Positions 1-51,719 of a stretch of DNA of 64,000 nt are shown here, in pieces. Position 1 is the stretch's first letter; each line of letters opens with the position of its first letter. This DNA comes from Hormiphora californensis. Lineage: Eukaryota > Animalia > Ctenophora. Where the stretch lies: NCBI GenBank assembly GCA_020137815.1, contig CM035351.1, positions 4,650,001 through 4,714,000 on the forward strand. The letters run 5' to 3'. Both the position numbers and the translations under genes were made by a program. The notes beneath the pieces were generated by a model. It did not search any database, was not told the DNA's origin, and saw nothing but the letters and a program-made list of their open reading frames with translations.

Positions 1-79
1 CTTTTCTCGTAGCTCCTGGTTCTTTTCTCTTTCTCAGCTTATCTCTCCTCCTAGCCATTGCTTTTCCTCCTTGCTCTCT

Positions 80-276
80 CTTTTCCTCGCCTCCGCCACA
101 GTCCACGGTGAAGGTTAGAGGAGGGGTGGGTGTTCGAGGCGTACCGATTAACAATTTTGCTCTCTTATTTCCTCGCAGCTGATCTCTCCTTCTGCTCTCT
201 TTTTTCCTCGCCTCCGCCACAGTCCACGGTGATGGTTAGAGGAGGGGTGGGTGTTTGAGGCGTACCGATTAACAAT
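80..276. repeat. Two direct copies of a ~75-bp unit, 119 bp apart
   Basis: ttttcctcgcctccgccacagtccacggtga..ggttagaggaggggtgggtgtt.gaggcgtaccgattaacaat occurs at ~80-156 and ~201-276. Confidence 0.85.
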
Positions 277-826
277 ACCCAACAAAGCAGTACGCTCTCC
301 TATAAATGATCTCTCGGATCCCTCTGATCTCTATATTTCCTGTTGCTCTGGTCTTTCTCTAATACAAGGCTGTTATCAGTGATATAGTGACAAGAACGAG
401 AGTGTTGTGACTTGTACTGTAAAGTTGCGAAAATATGGGCTTTTTTGAGACCTAAAAACTCGAATTTTAGGCCGTATTTTTTATTTTTTTCAAATTATTT
501 GATCTTGAGCTAATCTAATACCATCGGGCCATGCAAATGGATCAATTTGAGCACAATGGCTATCGACGAACAACATATTTTAACCATAATAGGGGGCTGC
601 AGTATGTCAAAAAGTGAGTTTTTGGGCGGCAGTGTGAGTTTTTGACAGAAAAATTTAAAAAAATTCATCGTTAAAAAGAGGCTCACGTGTTCAATTATGT
701 GTTATTCAACTTGCAATGGTATATGATGGGTCTCGATGAGGTTCAGCTGAAAGTTTTATTTTACAAAATATGAATTATCATTAAATTAGTTTTTAGGTGA
801 TTTTTCGAGTTGTAAAATTCTTAGTA

Positions 827-2594: not shown

Positions 2595-2727
2595 TACTAA
2601 AACACCTCTAAGTGTTAAATACAATGTCCATGTATTGATTATGATCATTTCTGATAAGAAAAAGAAAATAATTTTCAAAATTTTCAAAAAAAAGTTATAA
2701 AAATTTTAAGGTACTACATATATCAAC

Positions 2728-2940
2728 CACGTCCGAATCGTTTATCGCATGTCTTGCTGCTAATTAGACAGTTCGAAACGAACCGATACGTGATCCCCAT
2801 GGAGCCAGTTTAACATTAACAAGTGTCAAAATTGCGATTCGATGGGCCTCATGGGGATCACATATCTGTTCGCCTCGAACCGTCCAATTACCGGCAAGAC
2901 ATGCAACAAGATGCACCGATTCGAAACACGATTCGGACGT
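2728..2940. repeat. ~210-bp imperfect palindromic module (cgaatcg..tacgtgatcccc / ggggatcac..ccgattcgaaacacgattcg)
   Basis: Self-complementary ends acgtccgaatcgt / acgattcggacgt; the same module lies inside the hAT MITEs at 41.7-42.4 kb. Confidence 0.6.
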
Positions 2941-3135
2941 CCCACCTATGAAAACTTCATCGAAAACTTAAATTACGGGCTCTAATGGGCCGGATTTAAA
3001 CCCGTATAGATTACTAAAACTTTTCTTCTACCTTATTTTTTTCGATTTATCAGGAGTTTAAAGCATTTTTTCAGAAAGAAGACCCGCCCTAATTGATGCA
3101 CTTTAGATTGATTTAGAGGGATTTGTTACTATGTA

Positions 3136-4334
3136 CAGGGTGTCCCACTGTCTTTGCGTGACCTGTGATTTTGGGTGATGAGTGGGTTCCATTAAAATGC
3201 TCATAACTCATCGAAAAATTAGTCAAAACGGCTAAACCAAAAACAGTGTTTTAGAGAATTGTCAGGCGAACATTTGGGTACAAGATTGATGTTCCAAGTC
3301 TTACCAACCGTCAGATATATCGTCTTAAAGTCAAAAATACGTGTTCATGAAATCCGACCGGGGTTCACGTTTTGAAAAATTCACAAATGCAAAGTTGCTC
3401 GGATCACATTGCATCCCTCATAAGAGTTGTAGGAAATTGTCTGGCGATCATTTTGGTACCCGGTTTTTTGTCCTAGCTCAATGTTTAGAGTGTCTTATGA
3501 CTTTCTAAAGACGAAATTCAACCAACATTTTTGAGGGGATCACGTGTCATCAACAAATTGGTAAAATGGTTTGAAATTTATAAGAGCTTCATTGGAATCG
3601 TCTAAGGTTCATTTAGATACCATGATTTTTTCTATAGCTCTGCGTTTTAGTTGCGTTATAACTGTAGGAACATAGAGATTTTTCTACGCTGAGTCTTAGT
3701 TGGTATCGGCTCACAACGCCTAATTAGGTGGCTCGGTGTCGTGTGTAATCCCATGATAATCAGCACATATCGTCTCAATTTCATCTAGACACTTGACAGG
3801 GTTGTTATGACGATTTGGCAAGGCCCCTGTTAATGTGTAGGATACGCAAGTGGTCTATCTCAACCCTATCATGCACTAAGATGTTATTCAAGCAGTAATG
3901 AGCTTCATAACAGGGCAAAATGTAATGCGATACCTGAGACCACTTTTGTGAAAATTCCAGTTCTGACAGTCATAAGACACTCTAAACATTGAGCTAGGAC
4001 AAAAACTCGGGTACCAAAATGACCGCCAGACAATTTCCTACAACTCTTATGAGGGATGCAATGTGATCCGAGCAACTTTGCATTTGTGAATTTTTCAAAA
4101 CGTGAACCCCGGTCGGATTTCATGAACACGTATTTTTGACTTTAAGACGATATATCTGACGGTTGGTAAGACTTGGAACATCAATCTTGTACCCAAATGT
4201 TCGCCTGACAATTCTCTACAGCACTGTTTTTGGTTTAGCCGTTTTGACCAATTTTTCGATGAGTTATGAGCATTTGAATGGAACCCACTCATCACCCAAA
4301 ATCACAGGTCACGCAAAGACAGTGGGACACCCTG
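3136..4334. mobile_element. Mariner-like MITE family A, copy 1
   Basis: TA|CAGGGTGTCCCACTGTCTTTGC ... GCAAAGACAGTGGGACACCCTG|TA; ~370-bp TIRs and a ~460-bp spacer. Confidence 0.92.
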
Positions 4335-4458
4335 TACTATTATACGTCCAAAAACGTTGCACTTTTTGGCACAATTTCGAGACGTTTTACCCCATATATT
4401 TTAAAATATATCTTCTAGGCTGTGTGAATCACTAGTCGACTGATCATCACACAGTGTG

Positions 4459-7400
4459 ATGACTAGTCGACTTTGCCTTCTGTTTATTCTCGGAATGATA
4501 CTCACTGGAACAACAGCTGTTGAACAAATTGAAGTTGATAGCGCAACTGGTAGGACAGTCTACAAAAATAATAAAAAATATGGACCTGAAAAAGCTGTAG
4601 ACGGTAAAACAACAAGCTTTTACTCTTCCGCCGAAAGTCAGCCAGATCAGTGGCTAAAACTAACATTGAAGGAACCAGCTTCAGTTGGAAGTGTTGTCAT
4701 CATTAACAGGTAAAATTATTTGTTAAATTTTCCTATAATGTATTATGGAAATTAATGTATTATGGAAATTACTGTAGAATTGGCATTCTTTGTTTTATAA
4801 CTTTTCAACACTACTTTAAACAAATTAATTTGAGTGTTCCACTTATAATCGATTGATCCGTGTTAGAGGTTATTTTCCAATCTTCGATATCTTATAGTTA
4901 CGTGAATCTCTGTGGGCTTATTAAGAACGTACTGTGAGTGTTTTGAGTTGGGATTTATCTCTGTCCAGGAGTGTGAGCCAGGTGTTTTAGGATGAACAAT
5001 TTTCATGATATTACGAATAGAGAGGAGTTTGATAGAGCTCTTGAGAGTATGGTATTTAATTCTAAGTGTAAGGGTAGCTCTGTTCTGAATCGTCTGCTTG
5101 AGGGGGATATTACTCCTCCTCCTAACAGTCCAAGTGGCCCAACCAGAGAGCAGGTATGGGGTCTTCTAGTGTCAGCATATGCATTGATACCCAGCAGCTC
5201 CAGAACCCGGTTTGAAAGCGGCACTAGCTCAACGATGGATGCAGGTTCCCTGGAGGTATTGAAGGAAAGTTTTGAAAGCCTGAAGACTGATCTTCTAGCG
5301 ACCATTGAGAGGAGAGTTGATGATCAAGTATCGAAAATACTGGATAAGAAAGAGGATGGGAACAGTGGAATTGAGGATCAACCAGAACCGGTGTTACCGA
5401 TGAAGCATTATGTGGATATTAAGCTTGAAGTGGATGAAGATGATTCTGCGGCTCCGGTATGTCCGAAGAAGCAGTGGGCTGAGTTTGTGAAGCCAAAGGT
5501 GGAATCTGCGCTCAAGGGGGTCCCTGTACTCAATACATTTGTTAATAAAGGCTCTGTCCGACTTTCTTTCGAGACAGATGATCAACTCAAGGCAGCTGGT
5601 GCGGTTCTTTCACCGGCTTTGGGACAGGAGATCCAGACGGTTACAGAGAGGAAAGCGATGCTTGACCCAAGAATTGCGGTGAATGATTTGGATGCAGACT
5701 TACTTGATGAGGAGAAACTGATTTCGGAAATCCTGAGTGACAAGAATCAGGATATAAAGAAGGCCCATGGACAGGGTGGAAATATCAAGGTTATCCATAT
5801 CAACAGGAATGGTAGTTTTGCTGTAATCCAAGTCTCCCCAAGTATTCGGAGGATTATTTCATCTAATAAGGACAAGATTTTCCTGAAGCTGAGGCAACAT
5901 TCAGTTAGGGATCGGTTTCATGTGGTGCAGTGTTTCCATTGTCAAGAGTTTGGTCACGTGGCTGGTTCTATGAGGTGTTCCAAGAAGGACAGTCCGGCAG
6001 TTTGTGCGTTCTGTGCTGGTGAGCATGAGACGAGACAGTGTCAAGAAAAGAGGAAGAATGATGTAGCCAAACTGAGGTGTATCAATTGTCATGGCAGTGG
6101 AAGCAGAGAGGATAGGAGGCATTCAAAGACGCATCTTGCATCGAGTACCTTATGTCCTTTTTACATCAATGAACGAGGAAAGCTGATGGATAGGACTGCT
6201 GGCGTGAGTAAGGAGACAAAAAATGTCTACCGGACGAGGGCAATGGAAGAGCTGAGGATAAAACGACTTGGAGGATCGGGACGCTCAATGTCCATTCTAT
6301 AATGAACAAGACGGGAGGAATTCTGACTCATCTAGAGGATAAGGAATGTGACGTGTGCTTAGTACAGGAGACTTATCTAAAAGCTACGGATACAGCGAAG
6401 ATCAGGGAAATACAGGATAATGGATGGCAGGTATTCTCTAGTCCAAGGAGTGAGAGAGCTGGTGGTGGCATTGGCGTTTTCTATAGGGACGGAGTAGTGG
6501 TCAAACGAGCACCTGTTAAAGACAAGTTCAAGACCTTTCAGGTCCAGGAAGTCCTTATTGGAGGAGATGATGATCTTGTGAGGCTCTGTAATATATACAG
6601 ACCCCCCTACAATGGAAAGGCTCGGTATACAGAGGCAAATTTTCTGGAAGAGTTTAATGGATATATATCTAACCTTCTCATGAAAACAGGAAATCCGATG
6701 ATCATGGGAGACTTCAATTTCCAGGTTCAAGACTCAGGCAACTTTTATGCGAGGAAGCTTCTTCACCTTTTGGACTCATTTGACTTTGTGCAGAATGTAC
6801 CATCAGTTCCGACTCATGTGAGGGGAGGAACTCTGGATCTGATGATCTGTCAGCGTGATTTTCTTACTAAACTGGAAAACGTGCAAGTCTTTCCGGATGG
6901 GACGTTGTCAGACCATTTCTTGGCTACAGTGGACCTAAAGCTCTCTACCCCTGGAGATGATTATAGGACGTGGAGGAAGATGTACAGCTACAGAGATTTT
7001 AATTCGGTTGATCCAGAGGAATTCAGACGTGCTCTCCAGGAAGTTTGTCTTCGGGTTCCAGATGGGTGTACTGCAGAGGAGGCTTTGAGGATCTATGATA
7101 GTGCGTTAGAGGAGGTGGTGAGGAAACTGGTACCGATGAAGAGAAGGAAGGAAGTAAAGAGTGTTAAGTTGTGGAGGGAGAGACAAGATGTTCGGGAGGC
7201 ACTAAGGGAGAGGAGGAGAGCAGAAAGGGCTTGGGAATCTAACAAGACAGGACTCAACAAGATACAGTACAAGGAACTACAGAGGCGTTTTGAAAAGATT
7301 GATAAGCAGGCGAGGATGGAATTTTCCCGGAAGCAGCTTGAGGAGGTTAAAGATGATCCTGCAGCGCTGCAGAAGAGGCTAGGTCGTCTAATTGGAAAGT

Positions 7401-10071
7401 CTGAAACTGTTCTGCCAGGAGGAGTGTCAGACGGAAAGTTGGCAGAGGATTTTGCAGAGTTCTTCAGTGGGAAGATTGAGAAGATTCGGACAGCGGTTCG
7501 GGATGAGCAAGAGGAAGGTTCTGAGGAGCTCACTGTGGATTCTCTGCCTGCGCCTACCTGTACTCTAACCAAGTTTGAGGAAATCAGAGTTAATGAATTA
7601 GTTCGGGTTGTCAAGGAAATGTCATCGAAGTCTTGTGATCTGGACCCTATTCCGACCTGGTTGGTGAAAGACTGCCTTGAAGAACTAGCGCCGATCCTGA
7701 CGAACATTATCAACAAATCCCTTCTACGATCTACTGTTCCAGATATTATGCAGAAAGCATTGGTGATGCCAACGATAAAGAACCCCAATGGGGACACTGA
7801 TTTATTTTCGAACTACAGGCCGGTTTCTAACATATCGTTTGTATCGAAGGTACTGGAGAAAGTTGTGCTCAATCAGTTAAACTCATACCTATGGATGAAC
7901 GACCTACTCAATGCAGACCAATCTGGGTATAGGGCGGGGCATAGTTGTGAAACACTGCTTGCTGGAATGTTTGATGACCTGTTGAAGGATTTGGATTCTG
8001 GCAAAGTATCGGCCCTTCTGCTGCTTGACATGAGTGCGGCTTTCGATACTGTGGATCATTCGAAGCTGATTGGAATTTTGGAGGCAAGGTTTGGGGTAAG
8101 AGGATCTGCGCTTGAATGGTTTAGAAGCTACCTTAGCAAAAGGACTTTTAAAGTGAATGTTCGTGGGGAACTCTCGGCGGCGATTGCACTAATTTGTGGA
8201 GTCCCACAGGGGTCCCTTCTTGGACCTGTTTTATTCTTGCTGTACATTGAGGAACTTCAGGATATTGTTCGTCCCTATGGCCTAAAGATCAAACTGTATG
8301 CAGATGACTCTCAGATATACTTTGGACTGGTTCCGAGTGATGCAGAGGGGTGGAGTTCCAGTAAAAAGACCCTAGAGGATTGTCTCAAGAATGTCAAAAC
8401 ATGGATGGTTAGCCATGGACTTAAGTGTAATGAGGACAAGACGGAGTTTCTACTGTTGGGAAAGACAAGCTCCTTGGAAAAGATGGCATTTGATCCAGAG
8501 ATCCAGTTTGGAGGTTCGGTGGTCAGGCCTATGGAATGTAAGGGGACGACAGGAAAGACCCTCGGTGTTCTCATGGACCATCAGTTGACTCTTGAGAGAC
8601 AGATATTCAATGTTAAGAAACAGTGTGGCCTTATGCTCAAGAACTTGTGGCAGGTCAACAAGTGTCTTGACAAAGATACCAAGATTATGTTGGTCAAGCA
8701 ACTGGTCATTTCCCGGATTGATTACTGCAACATCCTTTACTATGGACTACCTAAGAGGATATTGAGGTATCTTCAGAAGACCCTGAATTCTTGTGTGCGT
8801 TTCATTTTCAATCTAAAGGGACATCAGGATGACTACACAGAATACTACAAGGAGGCACACATTCTACCTATTGAGCAGAGGCTGACTTTCAAGGCATGTC
8901 TTTTGGCGTACAAGATTGTACGAGGCACTGCACCCAAGTATCTGATGGACCTGGTCCCTCGTGATGACAATCCTGAACCTGTAAAACCTACCCGATCTAC
9001 CTCAGTTCCAGATTTCTTCAGGTTGAAATATCCAAAGCTCTCAAGTGTAAATGCGAATTCTAAGTTAAGAAGGAGGAGGATCTCTGTATTCCTGCCGGAA
9101 GTGTGGAACTCCCTGCCATTGGAGTTAAGGTCTGTTCACCCTGTTGAACTCTTCAAGACAAGGCTTAAGACCCGGCTATTTAAGGAAGCTTTCGTTGATC
9201 CAGAGAGCAGTAGCACCTGAGTCATCTCGTCTTTGGGTCACTGGTTCTGTTCTGGTCTGGGTTTAGTGTTCCCCTTAGGCAGACGTTTATTTAGACAGTG
9301 TTATTCCTCATTACATTTACCGGGCTTGCAGTAATAGCTGCTGACTTTTTAATAGCTTTGAGAGCTGCTGTCTTTGAGTAGCATGAGAGCTGCTGACTTT
9401 GTAATTTAGCTTATTCAGTGTGAGAGCATTTTTATGCCTATCTAAGTTGGTTTGTATTTTATGAGGCCCGTATTTTCATCAATAAAAGTCTATCTATGGT
9501 GTGTTTAAATCCAGATTTTAATAGTGTGTGTCATAAGTAAGGAAGGTGTTATAATTTAGGTATACCGCTCTGACGCTGAGCAGTGTCAGTCAAAATTCAG
9601 TTTGCTGGCCCTGTTTTGCCTGGGCGGTATACAAAAACTTATATTATTATTTATTATTATAATTTAGAGCTCAGAAGATCCACAGGTTAAATAAAGCCAT
9701 CTATAAGAATGTAATATGTAGTTTGATGTAATTTGATAATTTGTAATGTTGACTGTTGTTTCAGACTGCTTGATAACATGAAGGTCGTAACAGATCGTCT
9801 GCTGGGTACTAAAGTATCTCTAATTGGTGCTACAATTAACACCACCTGTAGCACTATCAACTCTGTCAACCCTAATGGAGCATCTCTTGAAGATCAGACC
9901 TACACGGTACCCTGTCCAGTTACCGCAGAGAAAACTCTGGCAGTCCTCCTCTATGATAATGTAATGGAGGAGTCTGAAGATAAGGGGAAAAACGAGATGT
10001 TCTTAAATGTAGCGGAGGTGATGGTTTATACACGGCTGATGGTTTATACTCGGCCTAAAGCAAGTGAGTAA
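4459..10071 (+). CDS. Secreted F5/8 type C / F-type lectin-like domain protein, unit 1 (exons 4459-4709 and 9765-~10063/10071); LINE in the intron
   Basis: Signal peptide MTSRLCLLFILGMILTGTTA; motifs PEKAVDG, QWLKLTL, VVIINR...RL; GT-AG intron in a compatible phase. Confidence 0.75.
4992..6302 (+). CDS. LINE ORF1, gag-like with three zinc knuckles
   Basis: CFHCQEFGHVAGSMRC, CAFCAGEHETRQC, CINCHG...HLASSTLC. Confidence 0.9.
   Translation: MNNFHDITNREEFDRALESMVFNSKCKGSSVLNRLLEGDITPPPNSPSGPTREQVWGLLVSAYALIPSSSRTRFESGTSSTMDAGSLEVLKESFESLKTDLLATIERRVDDQVSKILDKKEDGNSGIEDQPEPVLPMKHYVDIKLEVDEDDSAAPVCPKKQWAEFVKPKVESALKGVPVLNTFVNKGSVRLSFETDDQLKAAGAVLSPALGQEIQTVTERKAMLDPRIAVNDLDADLLDEEKLISEILSDKNQDIKKAHGQGGNIKVIHINRNGSFAVIQVSPSIRRIISSNKDKIFLKLRQHSVRDRFHVVQCFHCQEFGHVAGSMRCSKKDSPAVCAFCAGEHETRQCQEKRKNDVAKLRCINCHGSGSREDRRHSKTHLASSTLCPFYINERGKLMDRTAGVSKETKNVYRTRAMEELRIKRLGGSGRSMSIL
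6302..9220 (+). CDS. LINE ORF2, APE endonuclease plus reverse transcriptase (frame open from 6212)
   Basis: VQET, MGDFN, TLDL, SDH endonuclease motifs; YRPVS, LLDMSAAFDTVDH, GVPQGS, YADD RT motifs. Confidence 0.95.
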   Translation: MNKTGGILTHLEDKECDVCLVQETYLKATDTAKIREIQDNGWQVFSSPRSERAGGGIGVFYRDGVVVKRAPVKDKFKTFQVQEVLIGGDDDLVRLCNIYRPPYNGKARYTEANFLEEFNGYISNLLMKTGNPMIMGDFNFQVQDSGNFYARKLLHLLDSFDFVQNVPSVPTHVRGGTLDLMICQRDFLTKLENVQVFPDGTLSDHFLATVDLKLSTPGDDYRTWRKMYSYRDFNSVDPEEFRRALQEVCLRVPDGCTAEEALRIYDSALEEVVRKLVPMKRRKEVKSVKLWRERQDVREALRERRRAERAWESNKTGLNKIQYKELQRRFEKIDKQARMEFSRKQLEEVKDDPAALQKRLGRLIGKSETVLPGGVSDGKLAEDFAEFFSGKIEKIRTAVRDEQEEGSEELTVDSLPAPTCTLTKFEEIRVNELVRVVKEMSSKSCDLDPIPTWLVKDCLEELAPILTNIINKSLLRSTVPDIMQKALVMPTIKNPNGDTDLFSNYRPVSNISFVSKVLEKVVLNQLNSYLWMNDLLNADQSGYRAGHSCETLLAGMFDDLLKDLDSGKVSALLLLDMSAAFDTVDHSKLIGILEARFGVRGSALEWFRSYLSKRTFKVNVRGELSAAIALICGVPQGSLLGPVLFLLYIEELQDIVRPYGLKIKLYADDSQIYFGLVPSDAEGWSSSKKTLEDCLKNVKTWMVSHGLKCNEDKTEFLLLGKTSSLEKMAFDPEIQFGGSVVRPMECKGTTGKTLGVLMDHQLTLERQIFNVKKQCGLMLKNLWQVNKCLDKDTKIMLVKQLVISRIDYCNILYYGLPKRILRYLQKTLNSCVRFIFNLKGHQDDYTEYYKEAHILPIEQRLTFKACLLAYKIVRGTAPKYLMDLVPRDDNPEPVKPTRSTSVPDFFRLKYPKLSSVNANSKLRRRRISVFLPEVWNSLPLELRSVHPVELFKTRLKTRLFKEAFVDPESSST

Positions 10072-10412
10072 ACACTAAACATTTTGGTGGCGCCGTCACC
10101 GCTTGCGGGCTTCGTTTTGGTGCGCTGTGTCACCAAGTAACCATTATTGTCATAGGACAACGTGATGGCAAGAAGGCAGAATTACAAACCTAAGGATAGG
10201 AATGAAAATTGGTGTAGTTTGGTCCTTAAAGTGAGAGTGGACAGAACCAGAATTGGAAAAGTTTGTTGGAGGTTGTATACACTGTCCACTCTCACTTTAA
10301 CACATAAAATTACTGCCAACCAAATAAGTAGCTCCCAATAAACTGATAATACATAGTAACTCACAAACAAATTCCACCCATCTCTGTCATCATGACCTCA
10401 CCAAAATCATTC

Positions 10413-11078
10413 AACAAATAGAAGTTGATAGCGCTACTGGTAGGACAGTCCACGGCAATAATGAATATGGACCTGAAAAAGCTGTAGACGGCAAAACAAC
10501 AAGCTTTTACTCTTCTGGCGACGACGGGACAGATCAGTGGCTAAAACTTACATTGGAGGAACCAGCTTCAGTTGGAAGTGTGGTCATCATTAACAGGTAA
10601 AATTATTTGTTAGATTTGAATAATATAATGTATTATGGAAGTTAATGTATTATGGAAATAACTGTAGAATTGGCATTCTTTGTTTTATAATTTAGAGCTC
10701 AGAAGATCCACAGGTTAAATAAAGCCATCTATAAGAATGTAATATGTAGTTTGATGTAATTTGATAATTTGTAATGTTGACTGTTGTTTCAGACTGGGTG
10801 ATCAAAAGGTCGTAACAGATCGTCTACTGGGTACTAAAGTATCTCTAATTGGTGCTACAATTAACACCACCTGTAGCACTATCAACTCTGTCAACCCTAA
10901 TGGAACATCTCTTGAAGATCAGACCTACACGGTACCCTGTCCAGTTACCGCAGAGAAAACTCTGGCAGTCCTCCTCTATGATAATGTAATTGAGCAGTCT
11001 TATGATAAGGCGCACAACAGGATACTCGTAAATGTAGCGGAGGTCATGGTTTATATGCAGCTTGAACCAAGTAAGTAA
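10413..11078 (+). CDS. F5/8 / F-lectin-like unit 2 (exons ~10413/10422-10596 and 10793-11070/11078); no signal peptide or ATG of its own
   Basis: Close paralog of unit 1, including the intron sequence. Confidence 0.7.
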
Positions 11079-11251
11079 ATATTTGTAACTAACAAACAAA
11101 TTCCACCCATAATCCACCACATTCAAACAAATTCCACCCATATCTGCCCCCACAGCTATTATGACCGCACCAAAAATCATTCATAATATCAAAACCCCTC
11201 TCCCTAAGGTCCCATTTCAATCCTTAACACAGATATAATATTATGATTATA

Positions 11252-12445
11252 CAGGATGTCCCCACTGTCCTTGCATCACCCGCGATCCCAGGCCATGACC
11301 GGGCTCCACCAAACCAACCAAAACTGATCGAAAAATCGGTCAAAACGGTTCCAACAAAAACCAGTGCTCCAGAGAACTGTCCGGCGAACACCCTGGCCGC
11401 AAGATCGACTTTCATAGTCCCATCAATCGTCAGATACACCGTCGCAAAGTCAAAATCACGTATCCACGAAATCCGACCGGGGTCCACGCCTTGAAAAATT
11501 CACAAGTGCAAAGCCACCCGGACCACACTGCATCCCTCACAAGAGCCGTAGGAAACTATCCGGCGGCCATCCCGGCACCCGGGCTCTTATCCCAGCTCAA
11601 TGCTTAGAATGTCTTATGACTGTCAGAACTGGAATTTTCCCAAAAGTGGTTTCAGGTATCGCATTGCATTTTGCCCTGTTATGAAGCTCATAGCTGCTTG
11701 AATAACATCTTAGTGCATGATAGGGTTGAGATAGACCACTTGCGTATCCTACACATTAACAGGGGCCTTGCCAAATCGTCATAACAACCCTGTCAAGTGT
11801 CTAGATGAAATTGAGACGATATGTGCTGATTATCATGGGATTACACACGACACGGAGCCACCTAATTAGGGGTTGTGAGCCGATACCAACTAAGACTCAG
11901 CATAGAAAAATCTTAACATGTTCCTACAGTCATAACGCAACTTAAACGTAGAGCTATGGAAAAAACCATGGTATCAAGATGAACCTTAGACGATTCCAAT
12001 GATATGAAGCTCTTGTAAATTTCAAATCATTTTACCCATTTTTTGATGACACGTGATCCCCTCAAAAATGCTGGTTGAATTTCGTCTTTAGACAGTCATA
12101 AGACACTCTAAACATCGAGTTAGGACAAAACCCGGGCACCAAAATGACCGCCAGACGACCCCCCACAACTCCCACGAGGGACGCAATGCGATCCGAGCAA
12201 CTCCGCACCTGCGAACCCCGGTCGGACCTCATGAACACGCAATTGCGACTCCACGACGACACATCCGACGACCGGCAAAACTTGGAAAGTCAATCCTGCA
12301 ACCAAAACGTTCGCCAGACAACTCTCCAGAACACTGGCCCTTGCCAGAACCATTCCGACCAACCCCTCGACCAGCCCCGGCCAGTCCAATGGAGCCCGGT
12401 CATGACCCAAAATCGCAGGCGCCGCAAAGACAGTGGGACACCCTG
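11252..12445. mobile_element. Mariner-like MITE family A, copy 2 (inverted relative to copy 1) with hypermutated arms
   Basis: TA|CAGGATGTCCCC...GGGACACCCTG|TA; spacer close to the reverse complement of copy 1; arms carry dense T>C changes. Confidence 0.9.
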
Positions 12446-12689
12446 TATATTAAATATTTAGTTGGCAAACGTTGCTGCCTGCTGGCGCCACTCGCAGCGC
12501 TTTTCAATATGATTAGATGACTGCTTAAAATGGTCTGTTATTAGTTAGTGCACGTGGCCGAAGGCCAAGTTTTCTAAATACAACAATAATGAACCGAGAC
12601 CGATAGGTCGAGGTAGATTCTTTTACTTAGCTGCCGAGCCTGCGAGGCACGCTAAGTGTAACTAGCCTGCGAGCTCTGTAGTTGGACCC

Positions 12690-12960
12690 TGCTTGTGGGG
12701 GGTTTCACGCCCCCTGACCGAGGCTGCCGCCCCTGGCCCCGGACACCCAGGGACTTGCTGGGCCCTAAGAATTGTTAGCATTGAACTGTATGGCGGCGCC
12801 ATACCCCATTTGATTCTCAAATTGGCGCGACAGTGCGCTCAGATGGGTCGCGGCGCCAGACGGCCAGCGTTAAAATCTGGGTGTTTTGGGAGTGTTTTGG
12901 GAGTGCTGACAAACGGTTTTTTAGGGTTAGGGCTAAAGTAGGGTTAGGGTTGGGGTTAGG
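12690..12960. repeat. GC-rich dispersed repeat followed by degenerate TTAGGG-like units
   Basis: ggggggtttcacgccccctgaccgaggctgccgccc resembles the reverse complement of ~49270-49330; ttagggttagggctaaagtagggttagggttggggttagg at 12921-12960. Confidence 0.55.
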
Positions 12961-12994
12961 CCTTGACATTCCCCACCATATAAACTTTGAATCC

Positions 12995-13127
12995 CGTGTA
13001 CAGGTACACCCCTTACTCCCTCTCTCTCTGACCTGTACGGGTACACCCCCCGCCCCTTACTCCCCCTCTCTCTGACCTGTACGGGTACACCCCCTTACTC
13101 CCTCTCTCTAACCTGTACGGGTACCCC
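12995..13127. repeat. ~40-bp minisatellite duplicating the PITRM1 exon end and splice donor
   Basis: acctgtacgggtacacccc..cttactccc.tctctct repeated about 3 times. Confidence 0.8.
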
Positions 13128-15741
13128 GTGTATATTGGTCCTCTCCACCGGGTAGTGTGTTGGTTCACTTGACACATCACCCAGGGTTATACAAGGTAGA
13201 CAAGATAGGTCCTGGGTACTATTTTGGGCTGATGCCAACTTACTTGCTTCCTTCTTTATCCTGACCTCATCTAATGGGAGAGAGTGATGGTACCAAGGAG
13301 AGAGGCTGGTGTTTGAAGTTAGAACAACCCCCTACTTGCCAAAAATCACTATCAGAAATTCCAAATATACAGGAATTACAACTTATAACGTTAATCCTAA
13401 ATCCACTATAATATCCTGAAGTCTAGCCAATTATACCTTGCTCTGATAGGGTAGCAGTTCGTTCAGCTAACAGCTCCTCCTCCCTCTCCTGCAGTTTCTC
13501 CCCGTATGACCGATCAGGTACCATGATAGTAGTTAGTCTGTGTGTGTTGTCTCTAAACCAGGTCCGTGCCAACTCCCTCACATGACCGCCATCATCACCC
13601 TGCAGCTCTTTAAATCTGGGTGGAGGGAGAATGATAGATCGGTGACGAACAGTAAATTTCACATTAGCCTATCGGTTTGGGTACAGTGGATCCTCACGCA
13701 CCGGGAAGATACGTCGAACGCGATAGAAAGGGCGACCTCATACCCAAAATCAATGAAAATGTTTCGTATGAATTTATTTGTACCGTGCAGCATTCTGTAA
13801 GTGTTAACAGGGTGAGCAAGTGAGCATGATAGGGCGAATCATACCTAGCGATGTGGGAGTTTAGTTCCAGGTACTCGGATGGTTTACAACCATGTAACCA
13901 CGTTCCCAGGATACCCATACCGAGGTGCAGGCCAAACGAGGTACTCTGGTGTTTCTTGGAAATCTCTATCTGATGGAGTACAGCTGAGAGTTGTTCTTCA
14001 TCAACACCTTCCTCGCATACCTCTGCCCAGACACGCTCTATCGCTTCAAGGACCTGGTGGGAGAGAGAACGTAAGGTGGTTACCTATATTCGGCTCTCAG
14101 GTTAGTGGGAAGTGAACATAACAATTCGTGAGTATCTAGGATAACCACATGTAATGTGGTTACAGCCAAAGCCCAGATAAATCACGGTAGCTATACTGCT
14201 CCAAACCCTTTTTGGTGCTACGAAACATCGAAAAGTATTGATGTACTGATGTAGCTTGTTATTGAGTAACAAGATGTAGCATTATCTATGTAGCATACCT
14301 TGGGAACATTTTCTTTGGCAACACCCTTTAACCCGATGGTGAAATAGGAATCCTTGGTGTAGGAACAGAGACCGGTGCCAGGAGCAAAGTCAGCACCCAA
14401 CTCGGACTGAATTAGGGCTTCGTAAAACTTGCTCTGTGCTCCCTCTGTCAGTACCTCCGTGATGATACTGAGGGCAAGGTTGTGGTACCTGCAGAGGGGG
14501 GGGGTGATAATTCAGTAATGTGATTCACCGACGTGATGGTCCTTACTGCTCGTTAAAAAAGAGGGTCTGAGAGACAAGAGGTTGAAACTTGTCACAATTA
14601 TGTCTATATTATACGGTATAATTTATACCATGTGAGAGAAAACCATGATCTACAGAACCCTCACAGAGCGTGCTGTGAGTTTGGTGACGCGGTCCCCCCT
14701 ACACTAGGGCCGCGCGAAGCGCGGCAAACGAAGCCGGCGAAGCATAATAGGGGATGTCATCACCAAGCTGTGAGTCATACAAAGAGACCTTGCTTCTGGG
14801 TGTCTCTACCTGTCGTTCAGGGTGGGTAGTTTATAACTAACTGCCACCGTTAAACTGTCCCCATCCCCCAAGGAGGGATCATGGGGTCCACTTATCTCCA
14901 CAGTCCTTGGCTCCGACCACTGAGCCTCACTGGGTACCAGGGTGTTCGGGTCAATCCTCCCAAACCTATCCAAAACACCCGATAACTTCTCTAAGTGACC
15001 CTCAAGTGGAAGATCTCCGTAAGTGTAGAAGACTGCGTTACTCGGGTGATAGTGGGACCTGTGAAATGCCACCAGATCCTCGTGGCTAAGATCAGGGATT
15101 GAGAGTGGTACACCCCCACTGCAGTTCCCGTAGGTGTGGCTTGGTAGGATATTTTGGAGAACACCCTGTCCAAATATGTACCCTGAGTTGTTGTTATACC
15201 CCTTCATTTCGTTAAAAACAACCCCTTTAAACCCTATCTTCCCATCCCCTTTCTCTTCGTGTTCTAGTCTCCACCCCTCTTGTAGGAAATCCAGCCGATT
15301 TAGATTGGGGAAGAAAGCTGCATCACAATATATTGACAGGAGATTGTAAAAGTCCTGTTTGTTTTGAGTTGAAAAGGGGTACATAGTGAAATCGGGTGCT
15401 GTCATGGCGTTCATAAATGTAGAAAAGGACCGGGTTAGCATCTTGAAGAATGGATCCCGGACAGGGAACTGCTCCGAGCCACACAGGGCAGTATGCTCCA
15501 AGATATGTGCCACACCGGTATCGTCCATGGGGGTAGTTGCAAAGGCCACACAGAAATTATTATTTGAATCGTCCCGGTCTATGTGACAGTGCCTCGCCCC
15601 CGTTCCATCGTGTATTAGTTCAACAGCGGTACAGTTGAAATCTGGGATTGGGTCTACAGAGGTGACAGTGTAACCATGTATCTTCTGGCCGGTACTGTAG
15701 TGCCGGTGGAGCCTGGAGAACCGGCCAACATAACGGAGCAT
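13113..15741 (-). CDS. PITRM1: Mitochondrial presequence protease (M16C), N-terminal half; exons ~15741-14810, 14488-14299, ~14053-13845, ~13615-13437, ~13271-13113
   Basis: HILEH zinc motif, RDPFFKML, FMNAMT, QEGWRLEH, GVVFNEMKG; last visible exon QDLSCLP...GVPVQ; mitochondrial-type N-terminus. Confidence 0.92.
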
Positions 15742-16095
15742 GGCCTAGGAATCAGGGGAGTAGGGTGGTGTTAGGAGTGGGGAACAGGGGTCAAATTGGG
15801 ACAGTTTAGAGATTAAAACGAGGAGTTTTGAGTGGCAAATAAGTTAAGTTGATAAAAGATCTTCACAGATTACATATAAAAACCCCGTTCTCACTTCTCA
15901 CGTCACATGTTCGGGGTATGATGACAGTGAGACTTATGACATCACTGCTGCAGAAACTGACATACACTCACACACACTGACACACATAAACGCCGCGCAC
16001 TGTACCATCCACTTTGATCACAACTGAAACTTGGCGCGTTCCAGCAACGCGCCCCAAATAGCAAGATTGTCCATGCTGTCCCACCTTTCTCATCA

Positions 16096-16846
16096 TCACA
16101 GCTTGAATGTCCGCCCTCCAGCTCCAAGTTTGGCCCTTGCCTCTCGGGTCTCCTCCTCTTTATAAACCTCCTTCGTTGCCTTTTTAACCTGTCTCCTCAT
16201 TTTCTGGCTCTCCTTGACTGCTTTCTTCCTAGCTCGCTTCTCTTCAGCCGTTTCTGTTTTGGTTCTGAGATTAGAAATCTGGATCACATTCTCCTCGTCT
16301 TCCTCACTGCCCTCCTCCTCCTCCTCCACCACTCCCTCATCCTTATCCTCTCCTCCCTCCTGGATCACCATGCCTCGTTTATCAAGCTTGATCCTCCTGG
16401 GTACCTCAAGTACTTTAGGATGATTGTAAATGTTGGTGTAGGTTGACAGGATCGTCTCACAATCCCAAGCTATGGCTGCCCTATGTTCAATATCCTCCAC
16501 CACCGTCTCCTTCTTCTCAGAGCGCTCTTCTTGGCGAGATGCCAAAGCCAAGATACGGCGCTTATCGACCTGAACAGGGTGATGTTAACAATATACGTCA
16601 CACTTCTCAAATGTCAAAAAATCTGTCCCGGAAACCTAATTTCCCAGTCGATGTTTACCTACCCCTCCTAACCGCAACCTACCTGGTCGTCACCCTCTGT
16701 TATGCCGTGTTTATCAAAGTCTTCACACAGCTGTTCCAGAATTAGATTTGGTTCATCTTGGATCTCATCTTCATCGACTGGTCTGAGGTCTTCTTCCCCC
16801 GCACCCAGCTCATCGTACTCTTTAAACATCTGGTGGGTGTTGGGGT

Positions 16847-16890
<44 letters not shown>

Positions 16891-16910
16891 GAGAGAGAGA
16901 GAGAGAGTGA

Positions 16911-16947
<37 letters not shown>

Positions 16948-19269
16948 TACCAGTAACGGAATACAAGTAGAGCGTTTAATGAAGTTAAGTGCCTACCAAA
17001 CTGCCATGTACTGACACGTTCTCTAGACCATTCACAATTTGTCCATTTATGTCAACTCCACCCCTGCCTCATTTTGCCCCTGATACTATCATACTTTCCA
17101 CATCTCCCTCTCTATCCATGTCTATATTTCTCTGTCTCTCGCCCTTCCAGATAACTATAATTATATCTCTCTACGGCCGGCCCACCACCGTTTATCTCTT
17201 TCCTGTCTCGATACTATGTGACAGGTTTCTGTCACGGGAGATACACAGAGATATGAAAGTGTCTTAATTTCAAATCCTCATTATGACCTGTAGTAGTACA
17301 ACGTGTTGTACAGGATTCTAATAACTAGTGCTATTATCCTGTCTCACACTCTACTATTATACACTCTCATGTAGTATGACAATGTATGACAAACTTCTAC
17401 TACACACAGATTGTTTGTAAACCCTTAGGATCTATCTATCTATCTACAGAGTGCCCACATGGGACTTTCGCAAAGCGATATCGCCGGCACTAGAATAGCC
17501 CCTCTCCCCCACCATCAGGAACTACCACAGGCAGGTTCGCATTATAAATGGCGGGTTCGGGAGAGTAAACTCCTTCCAAAAAACCCTTAGGATGGTCCAC
17601 AATATAACCAGATTTTAGCACGGGAAACACAGAAAACAACAACTCATTACCAACATTGAGTCTCTTGACACTGTTTCCGTGCTTTAGAATAAAAATAAAG
17701 TATGAACAACCCATGACCAACAACTGAACCCACCTCTTCAAACTTGTTATCCAAATGAGTGAGATTTTCATTCCGGGGGAGGACAGAAGAGGAGACAGAG
17801 TATTCAGTAAACCGACACATTTCCTCATCTCCCTCGAGACCAGGGAGACTATCATTGTCATCATAGAAATCTGAATCAAGGTCCCTCTCCTCTCCCTCAT
17901 CGCTACAGATGGTATGATCATCATCATCACCATCAATAACACATTCTCCCTCGGCCTGGTTAAAATAGAGATCTGTTGAGTGTATAATAATGAATTTGTT
18001 TTCACTGTCGTCTTGGTTTAAAAAACGTTAAAGATTGAACAATATTATCATTGCGATTACCATAGTAATGAAGTCATCCTCCAGCTCCAGATCTGGGTTC
18101 TCCCAATCGAATTCATCGTCCAGAGCCGCCACAATATCAGGATCAAGAGATAGATCCAGACCCCGGGGTGCCCCATGGGCTAACATACCAATAGCCTCCT
18201 CCCGGGCAGAGGGCAGGACACATGATGGTAGCTGTACTTTTCCTGTAGTTGGATTTGGGTTGGTTTAATTTGATGACAACTCTCATGGAGGCAACTTTTG
18301 CAAACGAGGTAGATGGAAAAGTTGGTTGAGATGGGTTCGAGATCAAGTAATGTCGGAATTGTATCCTGAATTTACCTGGCTTGGTTGGGTTGCTAGCCTC
18401 CCATACAATGTCACTCTGACCCCGTTCTCGCAAGTGCTGCATGTAGTCATATTCATCATCGAAGAAAATTCCATGTTCTCGTTGACTGGCTAGCTGGGCA
18501 TCTCTGTTTTCAGGCTTATTTTCTGTCTTAATCTGGTCGTTGCCACCTAATAGAAGTAGTTATTTTAAGATTCTAGATTGAACTGAAACTTATCATTCTA
18601 TCAAGCCCCTCTTAAAGGTTGACAAGATACCTAAAACTTTTCGCATATCGTCTTATTTTGATTTATCATTAATTTTCAGCATTTTTTCAGAATTTTTTGT
18701 CGGCTAGAAAAAAATTCGAAATAGGGGGTCTACCGATATTGTCAGCACTGGTTTTACTGGGCACACTCACTGCGTCTCGCAAATTGAAATTCACGTTTCC
18801 GGTTCCTCAAAAGATAAAGACTTGATCTTGGTTGCGTTGGATTGGTCTCAATAAGACCTTTCCAACGCTACCGAAACGGTTTCTGTATCTCATCAGGATA
18901 TATCAGAGATATTACGTTATCAATTTAAAAAAAGGCACACTCATTTGTCAGTAGACCCCCTATTTTGCACATATTTCTAGCCGACAAAAAATTCTGAAAA
19001 AATGCTGAAAATTAATGATAAATCAAAATAAGACGATTATATACGAAAAGTTTTAGGTATCTTGTCAACCTTTAAGTAGCTATTAACTACCCCTACTGCA
19101 GATTGCTGTAGTACTGGTTACTGGAAATGTCACCCAAACCTTGGATTTCGGTGAAGACTCGTTGAGGAGCAGTTTCATCAGCAATTAGGGGATCCTTCTG
19201 GGATCTGTGGACCAGCCTGTAAACTGTAGCATTCTTCTTGTCTATAAAGGGCTTCTTCTTTCTACCCAT
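16096..19269 (-). CDS. LTV1: LTV1 ribosome biogenesis factor (multi-exon)
   Basis: MGRKKKPFIDKKNATVYRLVHRSQKDPL; IFFDDEYDYMQHLR; WDCETILSTYTNIYNHP; ETAEEKRARKKAVKE. Confidence 0.92.
16851..16944. repeat. (GA)n microsatellite
   Basis: Read directly. Confidence 0.95.
18616..19071. mobile_element. TTAA-target MITE (Kolobok/T2-like) family B in LTV1 intron 1
   Basis: TTAA|AGGTTGACAAGATACCTAAAAC...GTTTTAGGTATCTTGTCAACCT|TTAA. Confidence 0.85.
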
Positions 19270-19389
19270 AATTGTAGCCACTTGATAGAAACAGGGGTGA
19301 TCAGTTATGGTATTTTGTGGAGTTGTTATTGTAATCTTTATGTTAAAACAAGTTGATCGAATTATAAACCATTATAATTGGGTAATTAA

Positions 19390-20688
19390 GGGTACGCTAA
19401 CCAATATTTTTTTCGAGTGCAGGGAAATCTCTCACCGCAGGGTTGTAGGCCATGCCAAGGAGACCTCAAATATGCAATTTTAGCCCTCAAGTCGAATTCA
19501 TATTTTTGCTACAGCCGTTTTAAAATCGTCTTGAAAATTTCTGAAAAGACGTTTTTGACACCCTAAAAATACATTTTCAGGGCTAGAAGCTTAAAATTAT
19601 GGGGATTTGAAGGGGATAGGAAGGTTTATCGACACAAAAATTTTTATTAAAATCGGTGATGATTTTCGGTCGTGAGATTGATTTACTTTTTTCCCTCTTA
19701 AAGGCCCTATTTAGCAAAGTTCCGAAAGTTTGTGAAGGCTGTAAATTGGTGAAAAGTTGCGTCTAACGATTATCTAAGTGGCCACAAATTTTTGGCGTGT
19801 CCTTATTTGAGACAAGTTGTACGGAGCTTTTTTTGTGAAAGCCGTTTTTTTAAAAATAAAGAAATAGCCTGTATCTCAAAAACGACTGATTTTAGAGACC
19901 TGAGACCAAGCTTAAACGATTCAGAAGGTCCGATTTTGGGGGGTCTTCTGAGAGACATTTTTCTCCTACTTCAACGGTTTTTGCTGTAATTGCGAAAAAG
20001 GATTTAGCAAGAAGGTGGAAAAGCAGCACGAAGCAGGCTGTCGGAACTCCTCTTTTGCCCTCTTCAAAGGATTTGTTTTTCGCAATTACAGCGAAAACCG
20101 TTGAAGTAGGAGAAAAATGTCTCTCAGAAGACCCCCCCCCCAAATCGGACCTTCGGAATCGTTTAAGCTTGGTCTCAGGTCTCTAAAATTAATCGTTTTT
20201 GAGATACAGGCTATTTCTTTATTTCTAAAAAAACGGCTTTCACAAAAAAGCTCTGTACAACTTGTCTCAAATAAGGACACGCCAAAAATTTGTGGCCACT
20301 TAGATAATCGTTAGACGCAACTTTTCACCAATTTACAGCCTTCACAAACTTTCGGAACTTTGCTAAATAGGGCCTTTAAGAGGGAAAAAAGTAAATCAAT
20401 CTCACGACCGAAAATCATCACCGATTTCAATAAAAAATTTTGTGTCGATAAACCTACCTATCCCCTTCAAATCCCCAAAATTTTAAGCTTCTAGCCCTGA
20501 AAATGTATTTTTAGGGTATCAAAAACGTCTTTTCAGAAATTTTCAAGACGATTTTAAAACGGCTGTAGCAAAAATATGAATTCGACTTGAGGGCTAAAAT
20601 TGCATATTTGAGGTCTCCTTGGCATGGCCTACAACCCTGCGGTGAGAGATTTCCCTGCACTCGAAAAAAATTTTTGGTTAGCGTACCC
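19390..20688. mobile_element. Near-perfect palindromic TTAA-target MITE family C, copy 1
   Basis: TTAA|GGGTACGCTAACC...GGTTAGCGTACCC|TTAA; ~610-bp arms. Confidence 0.9.
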
Positions 20689-20930
20689 TTAAACAAGGTA
20701 CATGCGTTTCTTAACATAAACTAATCATTCCACACAAAAGAGCCAATATATATTTGTATCGAATATAACATTTCATATTTCCTCCAGTAATAATAACAAT
20801 CCATACTTTACAATATGTTTTTATTGCGCCATCAGCTAATTTCAAATTCCATTCATAATAATTTCTATGATTTATAATAATTTTATAACAAACACAAGCA
20901 TTATCCCACAATTCCTATCAAACCACTTTT

Positions 20931-22583: not shown

Positions 22584-23382
22584 ACCATCATCCCGCACAC
22601 AAACACACTAGTCACACAACAACCGGCTATAATCAAGGGGAGTAATTAATTGGGTGAGAGGGGTTACAATCGATTAATAGATTAGGGAAGAGGGGCTTTA
22701 ATTAACTGATTGGGAGAGGCTGCGGTGAGAGATTATTGATACATATAACAGTACCAATATGCAATAGAGTATGGGAACTGGGAAGTAATACTTCCAAATA
22801 CCAAACCACCACTAATCAAAAGTGTGGCTGATCAGCCCCACACGAGCTAGAAAATCAGATTACGATAGGCCAAATATATGGCTGGGGCCTGGGTCACAAG
22901 GGGGAAATGATACAATAAAGGACACGCAATAACACTCACACAAATTAGTTGTTAACGTATTATATTGGCACACACACCAGATATATATTACCAAATCAAA
23001 CACAAAACACAAAAATATAACACATTGAATCACCTTGTTTCACAAACACACAACAAGAATTGGTTAAATAAAATTTTACAAATCAAAAACACATGAAAAA
23101 TATAAGTGTGGAAGATAAATATTTTATACGTATTCAGTGGAAAAGATAGCAAGATATACAAAACAAAACATCTCTCTCCTGTGATATATTTATCTTGACA
23201 TAATGGGAAAATATATTTAACTTTGTGTAAGAGGAAAATATAGAAATATTGTACTGGCACAACCCCATTATGTTGGCATATATCAAATTATCCCTACCGT
23301 TAATGGTTATGGAAAAGTGTTAAACACGCTAACCCTTAACACACACTAACACAGTAAAGCTAACACACTCTAACACACTTAA

Positions 23383-50532: not shown

Positions 50533-51719
50533 CAGGGTGTCCCACTGTCTTTGCATCACCTGTGATTTTGGGTGATGAGTGGCTTCCATTCAAATGCTCA
50601 TAACTCATCGAAAAATAAGTCAAAACGGCTCAACCAAAAACAGTGTTGTAGAGAATTGTCAGGCGAACATTTGAGTACAAGATTGATATTCCAAGTCTTA
50701 CCAACCGTCAGATATATCGTCTTAAAGTCAAAAGTATGTGTTCATGAAATCCGACCGGGGTTCACGTTTTGAAAAATTCACAAATGCAAAGTTGCTCGGA
50801 TCACATTGCATCCCTCATAAGAGTTGTAGGAAATTGTCTGGCGGTCATTTTGGTACCCAGGTTTTTGTCCTAGCTCAATATTTAGAGTGTCTTATGACTG
50901 TCTAAAGACGAAATTCAACCAACATTTTTGAGGGGATCACGTGTCATCAACAAATGGGTAAAATGGTTTGAAATTTATAAGAGCTTCATTGGAATCGTCT
51001 AAGGTTCATTTTGATACCATGATTTTTTCCATAGCTCTACGTTTTAGTTGCGTTATGACTGTAGGAACATAAAGATTTTTCTACGCTGAGTCTTGGTTGG
51101 TATCGGCTCACAACGCCTAATTAGGTGGCTCGGTGTCGTGTGTAATCCCATGATAATCAGCACATATCGTCTCAATTTCATCTAGACACTTGACAGGGTT
51201 GTTATGACGATTTGGCAAGGCCCCTGTTAATGTGTAGGATACGCATGTGGTCTATCTCAACCCTATCATGCACTAAGATGTTATTCAAGCAGCAATGAGC
51301 TTCATAACAGGGCAAAATGTAATGAGATACCTGAGACCACTTTTGTGAAAATTCGAGTTCTGACAGTCATAAGACACTCTAAACATTGAGCTAGGACAAA
51401 AACCCGGGTACCAAAATGACCGCCAGACAATTTCCTACAACTCTTATGAGGGATGCAATGTGATCCGAGCAACTTTGCATTTGTGAATTTTTCAAAACGT
51501 GAACCCCGGTCGGATTTCATGAACACATACTTTTGATTTTAAGACGAAATATCTGACGGTTGGTAAGACTTGTAACATCAATCTTGTACTCAAATGTTCG
51601 CCTGACAATTCTCTACAACACTGTTTTTGGTTGAGCCGTTTTGACCTATTTTTCGATGAGTTATGAGCATTTGAATGGAAGCCACTCATCACCCAAAATC
51701 ACAGGTGATGCAAAGACAG
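50533..51719. mobile_element. Mariner-like MITE family A, copy 3 (right tip truncated)
   Basis: TA|CAGGGTGTCCCACTG; highly similar to 3136-4334. Confidence 0.9.

What the first reader, a model, noticed from the sequence alone, without database searches (positions are those of the whole stretch)
11252..12445. One-strand hairpin: MITE arms, but not the loop, converted by strand-specific A>G and C>T changes that preserve G-U pairing
Seen: compared with sister copies (3136-4334, 50533-51719), both arms of this copy carry dense T>C changes on the + strand. Examples: gattttggg>gatcccagg, gttgctcggatcacattgc>gccacccggaccacactgc, aatttcctacaactcttatg>gaccccccacaactcccacg, aatttttcg>aacccctcg. There is also a smaller set of G>A changes. 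The non-palindromic spacer (~11620-12090) remains close to the sister copies with no such bias. Ordinary mutation or arm-to-arm conversion would be symmetric. On the minus strand these changes are A>G and C>T, the two substitutions that turn Watson-Crick pairs into G-U/G-T wobbles. The minus-strand hairpin therefore still pairs, while the plus-strand hairpin is filled with A-C mismatches. Established: clustered A>G confined to duplex regions is the ADAR hyper-editing signature, but ADAR does not explain C>T. Inference: (a) a structure- and strand-targeted deamination process that writes into the genome and disarms palindromic transposons; (b) selection that keeps an RNA stem in the minus-strand PITRM1 intron, or breaks it in the plus-strand lectin transcript; or (c) edited RNA reads leaking into the assembly. 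By eye, the 1080-2420 palindrome shows a weak bias in the same direction (about 7 mismatches versus 2-3).
Basis: partly seen in the sequence, partly recalled or inferred. Interest (0 to 1): 0.92.

Follow-up and report, generated by a model that had tools for sequence, protein, structure and literature searches.

The report
RNA edits inherited in comb-jelly transposon
In a comb jelly, about half of the A letters on one strand of a hairpin-shaped cut-and-paste transposon read G in the inherited DNA, in the pattern of the RNA-editing enzyme ADAR, which likely means an edited RNA was copied back into the genome although this kind of element has no RNA stage.

Summary
The main observation is real. 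The 1.2-kb TA-flanked inverted-repeat element (MITE) at 11252-12445, in a ctenophore, has A>G on the minus strand at 109 of 207 arm adenosines. The loop is spared (3 of 128). The 5' neighbour order U>A>C>G matches ADAR. Contigs of 4 of 4 laid runs (kind guessed as DNA; two samples, two studies) carry the same edits, with later polymorphisms, so this is inherited DNA, not RNA leakage. The claimed second process (C>T) is not significant (p=0.07), and 6 of its 12 sites have ordinary explanations. None of 9 other palindromes is biased. Best reading: ADAR hyper-edited the fold-back in a minus-strand RNA, probably a PITRM1 intron, and the RNA was reverse-transcribed into the germline. The write-back route is inferred. 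In-place cDNA-templated repair is slightly favoured (TA ends, no tail, carrier or long target-site duplication) over retroposition followed by cut-and-paste. The published precedent is hyper-edited avian retroviruses; my searches found no DNA-transposon case in print. This scan noted the same phenomenon earlier in at least 5 other genomes (unchecked notes). It is one locus, with uncalibrated copy number.

The parts
11252..11625 (-). Left arm of the MITE (3' arm of the minus-strand hairpin), hyper-converted A>G on the minus strand
   Evidence: 49 of 107 adenosines converted, sister-free count; in contigs of X1, X2, X3, X6 (records 3, 13, 19, 26)
11626..12089 (.). Non-palindromic spacer (loop), not converted
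   Evidence: T>C 3 of 128; 15 differences from the sisters in 446 columns
12090..12445 (-). Right arm (5' arm of the minus-strand hairpin), hyper-converted; lacks 16 nt near 12211, a deletion that is polymorphic among edited haplotypes
   Evidence: 60 of 100 adenosines converted; records 7, 15, 22, 27, 28
11250..11251 (.). TA at the left end (target-site duplication of Tc1/mariner type)
   Evidence: ends printed
12446..12447 (.). TA at the right end
   Evidence: ends printed
3136..4334 (.). Unedited sister copy, TA at both ends, opposite orientation
   Evidence: A.C 2 vs G.T 2
50533..51719 (.). Unedited sister copy, right end short by about 13 nt
   Evidence: A.C 4 vs G.T 1
13110..15744 (-). 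Five PITRM1 (presequence protease) exons coding aa 1 to about 567 of about 995; the last is followed by a GT donor. Candidate source of the minus-strand RNA
   Evidence: donor read; the remaining aa are not found in the window at E<=10
4860..9660 (+). Open LINE (frames of 441 and 1002 aa, endonuclease + reverse transcriptase, TTA-type tail) inside a lectin-gene intron. Shows that the genome encodes a reverse transcriptase; no link to the edited copy is shown
   Evidence: ends approximate
10360..11190 (+). F5/8 type C lectin-like gene copy and a decayed start of a further copy, forming the left flank
   Evidence: joined to the edited arm in one contig (X3 record 19)

Best explanation
This is a TA-flanked inverted-repeat DNA transposon whose arms carry about 109 one-strand A-to-G changes in inherited DNA, likely made by ADAR on the element's fold-back in a minus-strand RNA and likely copied back into the germline by reverse transcription. 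Step 1 (inferred): a minus-strand transcript ran through the element, probably PITRM1 pre-mRNA with a long intron, and the ~360-bp arms paired. Step 2 (signature shown, enzyme inferred): ADAR converted about half of the stem adenosines on one molecule and spared the loop and the innermost stem. Step 3 (inferred): that molecule was reverse-transcribed with inosine read as G. I favour in-place replacement, where the cDNA or RNA templated repair of a break at this palindrome, for example after transposase excision (about 0.45 overall). Step 4 (shown): the allele was inherited and gathered further polymorphisms; its arms now match at about 68% of aligned pairs on the + strand. The confidence given is for the core (ADAR on RNA, then write-back), not for the route.
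For: One change type, one strand, both arms, loop spared. 53% conversion (109/207), like the nearly 50% reported for hyper-edited avian retroviruses (PMC12925331, passage). 5' neighbour U .76, A .64, C .49, G .20 (chi2 p=5.6e-7) with no 3' preference (p=0.21); this matches the pan-metazoan ADAR pattern, and a ctenophore has ADAR1 and ADAR2 that edit mainly repeats (PMC9989829, passages). The host is a ctenophore. 0 of 8 adenosines converted at the inner stem end. Same pattern in 4 of 4 runs from 2 samples and 2 studies, differing from the window by 0-7 letters per contig. For the in-place route: TA at both ends; no A or T run of 7 or more in 9001-13035 and no direct repeat longer than 10 nt across the element within the stretches compared; no Rfam family at gathering score in the window, so no hammerhead carrier; strand agrees with PITRM1; edited-arm depth is similar to left-flank depth (X2 726 vs 591, X6 623 vs 648, X3 47.9 vs 42.5, X1 628-791 vs 948).
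Against: No cDNA intermediate, tail or carrier is seen, so the write-back is inferred from the signature alone. No RNA run was shown to cover or edit the locus (the one same-species RNA-type run listed holds next to none of the words). That PITRM1 continues past the element is not shown, and the strand match has a 1-in-2 chance. The sister at 3136 and the 1080 palindrome would lie in the same intron and are unedited. 10 of 12 G>A sites face a C, more than a 50% edit rate predicts, and 6 are unexplained. Depth is uncalibrated: unequal left-flank variants (about 3:1 in X2 and X6) allow 2 to about 4 copies per genome. The run kind 'DNA' is the tool's guess, and one sample may be the source of the assembly.
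Confidence: 0.85

Rival explanations
1. Same ADAR editing, different route: the element was edited while inside a retroelement or read-through transcript, was retroposed elsewhere, and the edited copy was then cut and pasted into this TA site (or arrived inside a longer retrocopy). This shares the core of the best explanation.
For: The outermost 22 nt of the right end equal the sister's end, so the copy could still have been moved. An open LINE reverse transcriptase lies in the window. Retroposition is a commoner route than templated repair over 1.2 kb (own knowledge). Earlier scan notes report this route in other genomes (unchecked). Depth in X2 and X6 allows more than one locus.
Against: No carrier, tail, long duplication or ribozyme near the copy. 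Edited-arm depth tracks left-flank depth, so no independent multiplication is seen.
Confidence: 0.38
2. The DNA was deaminated directly, by ADAR on an RNA:DNA hybrid limited to the arms or by an unknown adenine deaminase on a single-strand DNA hairpin, with no reverse transcription.
For: Explains the lack of retroposition marks. ADARs can edit the DNA strand of long hybrids (PMC5389660, abstract and passages). One strand of a cruciform would also give a one-strand pattern.
Against: A co-transcriptional hybrid would not spare the loop. Double- and single-stranded DNA did not compete for ADAR in early work cited in PMC5389660. About 100 deoxyinosines in 730 nt would have to escape repair (inference).
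Confidence: 0.08
3. Ordinary mutations were filtered by selection to keep the minus-strand stem or to break the plus-strand stem.
For: The minus strand still pairs end to end.
Against: The starting stem was already near perfect and has been weakened. A>G far exceeds C>T although both keep wobble pairs (100 vs 12). The neighbour bias is unexplained. The loop differs from the sisters by only 15 of 446 columns, too little time for about 100 fixations.
Confidence: 0.02
4. Edited RNA reads or polishing errors entered the assembly.
For: No contig spans the whole element; run kinds are guessed.
Against: Both edited arms are in 4 of 4 runs from 2 studies; one contig joins 70 nt of flank to the edited arm; per-molecule RNA editing would not give one shared pattern at flank-like depth.
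Confidence: 0.01

Closest known systems
[quoted passage not shown]
   Same: Nearly 50% of adenosines changed to G in an inverted-repeat region of an element that is reverse-transcribed
   Different: There the substrate is a retrovirus with its own reverse transcription. Here it is a non-coding cut-and-paste element with no RNA stage, inherited in the germline of a ctenophore and shared by two samples
ADAR hyper-editing of repeat-derived dsRNA across Metazoa, including Mnemiopsis (PMC9989829, passages)
   Same: Repeat substrate, duplex-limited A>G, 5' U/A favoured and G disfavoured, weak 3' preference
   Different: Those are RNA-only changes; here they are fixed in DNA
APOBEC 'DNA-edited' LTR retroelements (PMC4866542, passages; PMC2873906, passages)
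   Same: A burst of one-type, one-strand deaminase changes in a transposon copy, inherited in the genome
   Different: G>A on cDNA and not structure-limited; invertebrates and DNA transposons served as negative controls in PMC4866542, where the term ADAR has 0 occurrences in the main text
Tc1/mariner-type MITEs with long terminal inverted repeats (label from own knowledge, no call names the family)
   Same: TA at both ends, CAG start, long arms, no coding frame, many copies
   Different: No transposase was linked; this copy's arms are no longer near-perfect complements

Membership tests
ADAR hyper-edited duplex | Changes are A>G on one strand only | tested here: met
   100/204 vs 8/204; A.C 109 vs G.T 3
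ADAR hyper-edited duplex | Confined to the duplex, both arms | tested here: met
   49/107 and 60/100 in the arms; loop 3/128
ADAR hyper-edited duplex | 5' neighbour U/A > C > G, weak 3' preference | tested here: met
   reference pattern in PMC9989829
ADAR hyper-edited duplex | The edited strand is transcribed and edited by ADAR in this species | not tested
   No RNA run laid; PITRM1 lies upstream on the same strand; ADARs reported for Mnemiopsis only
Retrocopy or retroelement-borne copy | Poly(A) tail, long target-site duplication or flanking retroelement sequence | tested here: not met
   only the stretches near the element were compared
Retrocopy or retroelement-borne copy | Unedited source locus with the same flanks | tested here: inconclusive
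   Flank depth about equals edited-arm depth, uncalibrated; no genome held
Tc1/mariner-type MITE | TA target-site duplication and terminal inverted repeats | tested here: met
Tc1/mariner-type MITE | Non-coding and high copy number | tested here: met
   No frame over 91 codons overlaps the sister (not scanned against Pfam); loop depth in X3 6,600-20,000 against about 45 for the edited arm
Tc1/mariner-type MITE | Autonomous partner with a DDE/DDD transposase and the same ends | not testable with these tools
   No genome held; collection scans gave 0, 0 and 1 match, the last sharing only the terminal bases by eye
APOBEC DNA-edited element | G>A clusters on the sense strand | tested here: not met
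   G>A 12/142 vs C>T 4/137, p=0.069

The most novel reading that the evidence does not exclude
Edited pre-mRNA serves as the template that repairs breaks at palindromic DNA transposons in the germline, so ADAR edits overwrite the element in place and destroy its palindrome. This would be an RNA-to-DNA inheritance route that needs no retroelement carrier and already works in ctenophores, among the earliest-branching animals.
Probability: 0.3. Interest if true: 0.9.

Novelty: new variant of a known kind. Interest (0 to 1): 0.72.

Why it matters
ADAR editing is regarded as RNA-only and not heritable, and DNA transposons and invertebrates have been used as negative controls for editing scars in genomes (PMC4866542). 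An inherited, ADAR-patterned DNA transposon copy implies that RNA sequence reached the germline at an element with no RNA stage. Because each edited molecule has its own pattern of about 100 changes, such copies act as barcodes. A genome-wide survey could test directly how often RNA-templated repair or retroposition rewrites germline DNA, and whether edited strands follow host-gene orientation. The case also bears on practice: such copies look like old diverged repeats and can give false RNA-editing calls when reads cross-map.

Tried and rejected
Whole-genome family survey: no genome is held. Family copies from public collections: a loop pattern gave 0 in viral contigs and 0 in metagenome contigs; a terminal pattern gave 1 locus that by eye shares only the terminal bases and was not used. 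Same bias in other repeats: 0 of 9 other palindromes; among all self-alignments of 50 nt or more, only those involving this copy are biased. Hammerhead or other RNA carrier: 0 Rfam matches at gathering score, 2 chance-level matches at E 1.6 and 4.6. Tail or long target-site duplication: none. T>C bias in the lectin duplicates: none. Naming the family by its terminal motif in the literature: 154 papers hold the 10-mer, none of the 15 listed is relevant by title. CpG decay at edit-created CpGs fits 11290 and 11516 but not 11462, 11558 or 11589 (read). An empty-site joint is not among the 15 of 18 joints shown; contigs show presence only. Single-copy depth calibration and an RNA junction after PITRM1 exon 5 were not obtained. 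Earlier scan notes by sequence and by place: nothing; first word search: nothing.

Full report
WHAT IS THERE. Window 11252-12445 is a 1,194-nt non-coding element with arms of about 360-370 nt, a spacer of about 465 nt, and TA at both ends. Two sisters lie at 3136-4334 and 50533-51719, 96.6% alike to each other and in the opposite orientation. The host is a ctenophore: the neighbouring PITRM1 exon is 73% identical to Bolinopsis microptera and 65% to Mnemiopsis leidyi, and at most 62% to the other listed hits with a named species. I did not determine the species. Summed contig depth suggests hundreds of family copies (a rough measure).

THE CHANGES. Where both sisters agree, the arms have T>C at 100 of 204 T and A>G at 8 of 204 A; the loop has T>C at 3 of 128. 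Arm against arm, the + strand has 109 A.C and 3 G.T mismatches. Counted without the sisters, 109 of 207 minus-strand adenosines are G: 49 of 107 in one arm and 60 of 100 in the other. Conversion is spread along the stem (8/17 to 16/23 per 40 columns) and is 0 of 8 at the inner end. By 5' neighbour on the minus strand the rates are U 29/38, A 45/70, C 24/49 and G 9/45 (p=5.6e-7); the 3' neighbour has no effect (p=0.21). The sister-based count gives the same order. This is the pattern reported for ADAR in all metazoans examined, in a study that also found ADAR1 and ADAR2 in a ctenophore and repeats as the main targets (PMC9989829, passages). The minus strand folds at -680 kcal/mol and the plus strand at -412; the sisters fold at -768 to -788 on either strand.

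NO SECOND PROCESS IS NEEDED. G>A is 12 of 142 against C>T 4 of 137 (p=0.069). The copy belongs to another subfamily than the sisters: both its arms agree against them at 18 columns. An A:T pair private to that subfamily, once its T is converted, looks like G>A facing C. The same effect shows at 5 of 7 transversion-type subfamily sites. Of the 12 sites, 2 are symmetric, 3 read G in other edited haplotypes, and 1 has T at the partner position in an unedited relative. Six remain unexplained, and 10 of 12 facing C is somewhat more than a 50% rate predicts, so a minor extra bias is not excluded. The 1080-2420 palindrome is not biased (9 vs 4, p=0.27), and 0 of 9 other palindromes are.

IT IS IN INHERITED DNA. 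Six of 22 listed runs hold half or more of the words of 10700-13400; I laid 4 of these 6, from two samples and two studies. All 4 have contigs on both edited arms with 0-7 other letters (records 3, 7, 13, 15, 19, 22, 26, 27, 28). X3 record 19 joins 70 nt of left flank to the whole left arm. The right junction contigs reach only about 20 nt into the element, so that side is not bridged by the tool's 31-letter rule. Edited haplotypes differ by later changes (11290, 11414-11415, 11423, 11516, 11558), and the 16-nt deletion near 12211 is seen both present and absent in each sample. Hyper-editing differs from molecule to molecule in RNA (established knowledge), so one shared pattern at flank-like depth cannot be RNA. 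Caveats: run kinds are guessed, one sample may be the assembly's source, and tables 3-8 were cut to the best-supported rows. Edited-arm depth is close to left-flank depth in each run (726/591, 623/648, 47.9/42.5, 628-791/948). Unequal flank variants (about 3:1 in X2 and X6) allow 2 to about 4 copies per genome, travelling with the flank. Depth was not calibrated.

CONTEXT. PITRM1 lies on the minus strand; five exons give aa 1 to about 567 of about 995, and the rest is not in the window. The last exon is followed by a GT donor. The element therefore lies downstream on the edited strand, in an intron of more than 13 kb with nested lectin genes and a LINE, or behind a truncated gene. Nested intronic genes are common in a ctenophore genome (1,654 host genes; PMC8527503, passages), which makes the intron reading plausible, not shown. 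An open LINE with endonuclease and reverse transcriptase lies at about 4860-9660. No tail, long duplication or Rfam RNA flanks the edited copy.

MECHANISM. Shown: one-strand, duplex-limited, ADAR-patterned A>G in inherited DNA. Inferred: ADAR acted on an RNA fold-back and the molecule was reverse-transcribed (0.85). Two routes remain. In-place repair of a break at the palindrome from the edited transcript fits the plain TA ends, the missing retroposition marks, the strand and the depth parity (about 0.45). Retroposition inside a carrier followed by cut-and-paste fits the intact right end and the commonness of retroposition (about 0.38). Direct DNA deamination (0.08) would need a hybrid limited to the arms; ADAR edits DNA in hybrids, while DNA alone did not compete for it in early work (PMC5389660, abstract and passages). 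Selection (0.02) and artefact (0.01) are rejected. Papers on RNA-mediated break repair were seen only as a search listing.

WHAT IS KNOWN. [quoted passage not shown] APOBEC scars in LTR elements are the inherited analogue, with DNA transposons and invertebrates as negative controls (PMC4866542; PMC2873906; passages). Five full-text searches (listings and abstract starts, 105 rows in all) showed no report of an ADAR-hyper-edited DNA transposon fixed in a germline. The library lacks most subscription papers and I read no supplements, so this is not proof of absence. Earlier notes of this scan describe the same phenomenon in at least 5 other genomes, some in DNA transposons. They are unchecked, none holds the word ctenophore, and my ADAR reading was recorded before I saw them. 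They led me to the carrier checks and to two papers.

VERDICT. A real, inherited record of ADAR hyper-editing in a cut-and-paste element of a ctenophore. It works like the hyper-edited retroviral inverted repeats but is not a retroelement by the features tested: a new variant of a known kind. It is one locus and its route is unresolved. Interest 0.72.

Noticed in passing
window 13110-15744 (-) and 1-13110: PITRM1 stops at about aa 567 with a GT donor; the remaining ~430 aa are not in the window. Either an intron over 13 kb with nested lectin genes, a LINE and MITEs, or a truncated gene.
   Followed up: partly
window 12997-13120: The end of PITRM1 exon 5 with its donor is repeated in tandem about three times, giving spare donor-like sites.
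   Followed up: no
window 4860-9660 (+): Apparently intact LINE (frames of 441 and 1002 aa, TTA-type tail) inserted in the intron of a duplicated F5/8 type C lectin gene (4520-4803 plus 9646-10070; second copy 10360-11075).
   Followed up: partly
window 41463-45396: Arms of 1,361 nt that are 100% complementary around a 1,212-nt spacer; the arms hold older nested palindromic repeats 65-76% alike. A very young or recently homogenised fold-back element.
   Followed up: no
window 12461-13000: Right flank: a remnant like the ends of an element at 50019-50358, then two very high-copy repeats, one with small hairpins and one with TTAGGG-like runs; no Rfam match.
   Followed up: partly
window 1079-2419, 18611-19076, 19386-20692, 23379-24775, 45685-46165: Several other long-arm palindromic elements, some with TTAA at their ends (piggyBac-like, label recalled); none shows one-strand bias.
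   Followed up: yes
X2 record 12 (on 11271-11388) and X1 loose end at 12388: Contigs of relatives closer to this copy's subfamily than the window's sisters; the loose end is unedited. Candidates for the progenitor subfamily.
   Followed up: partly
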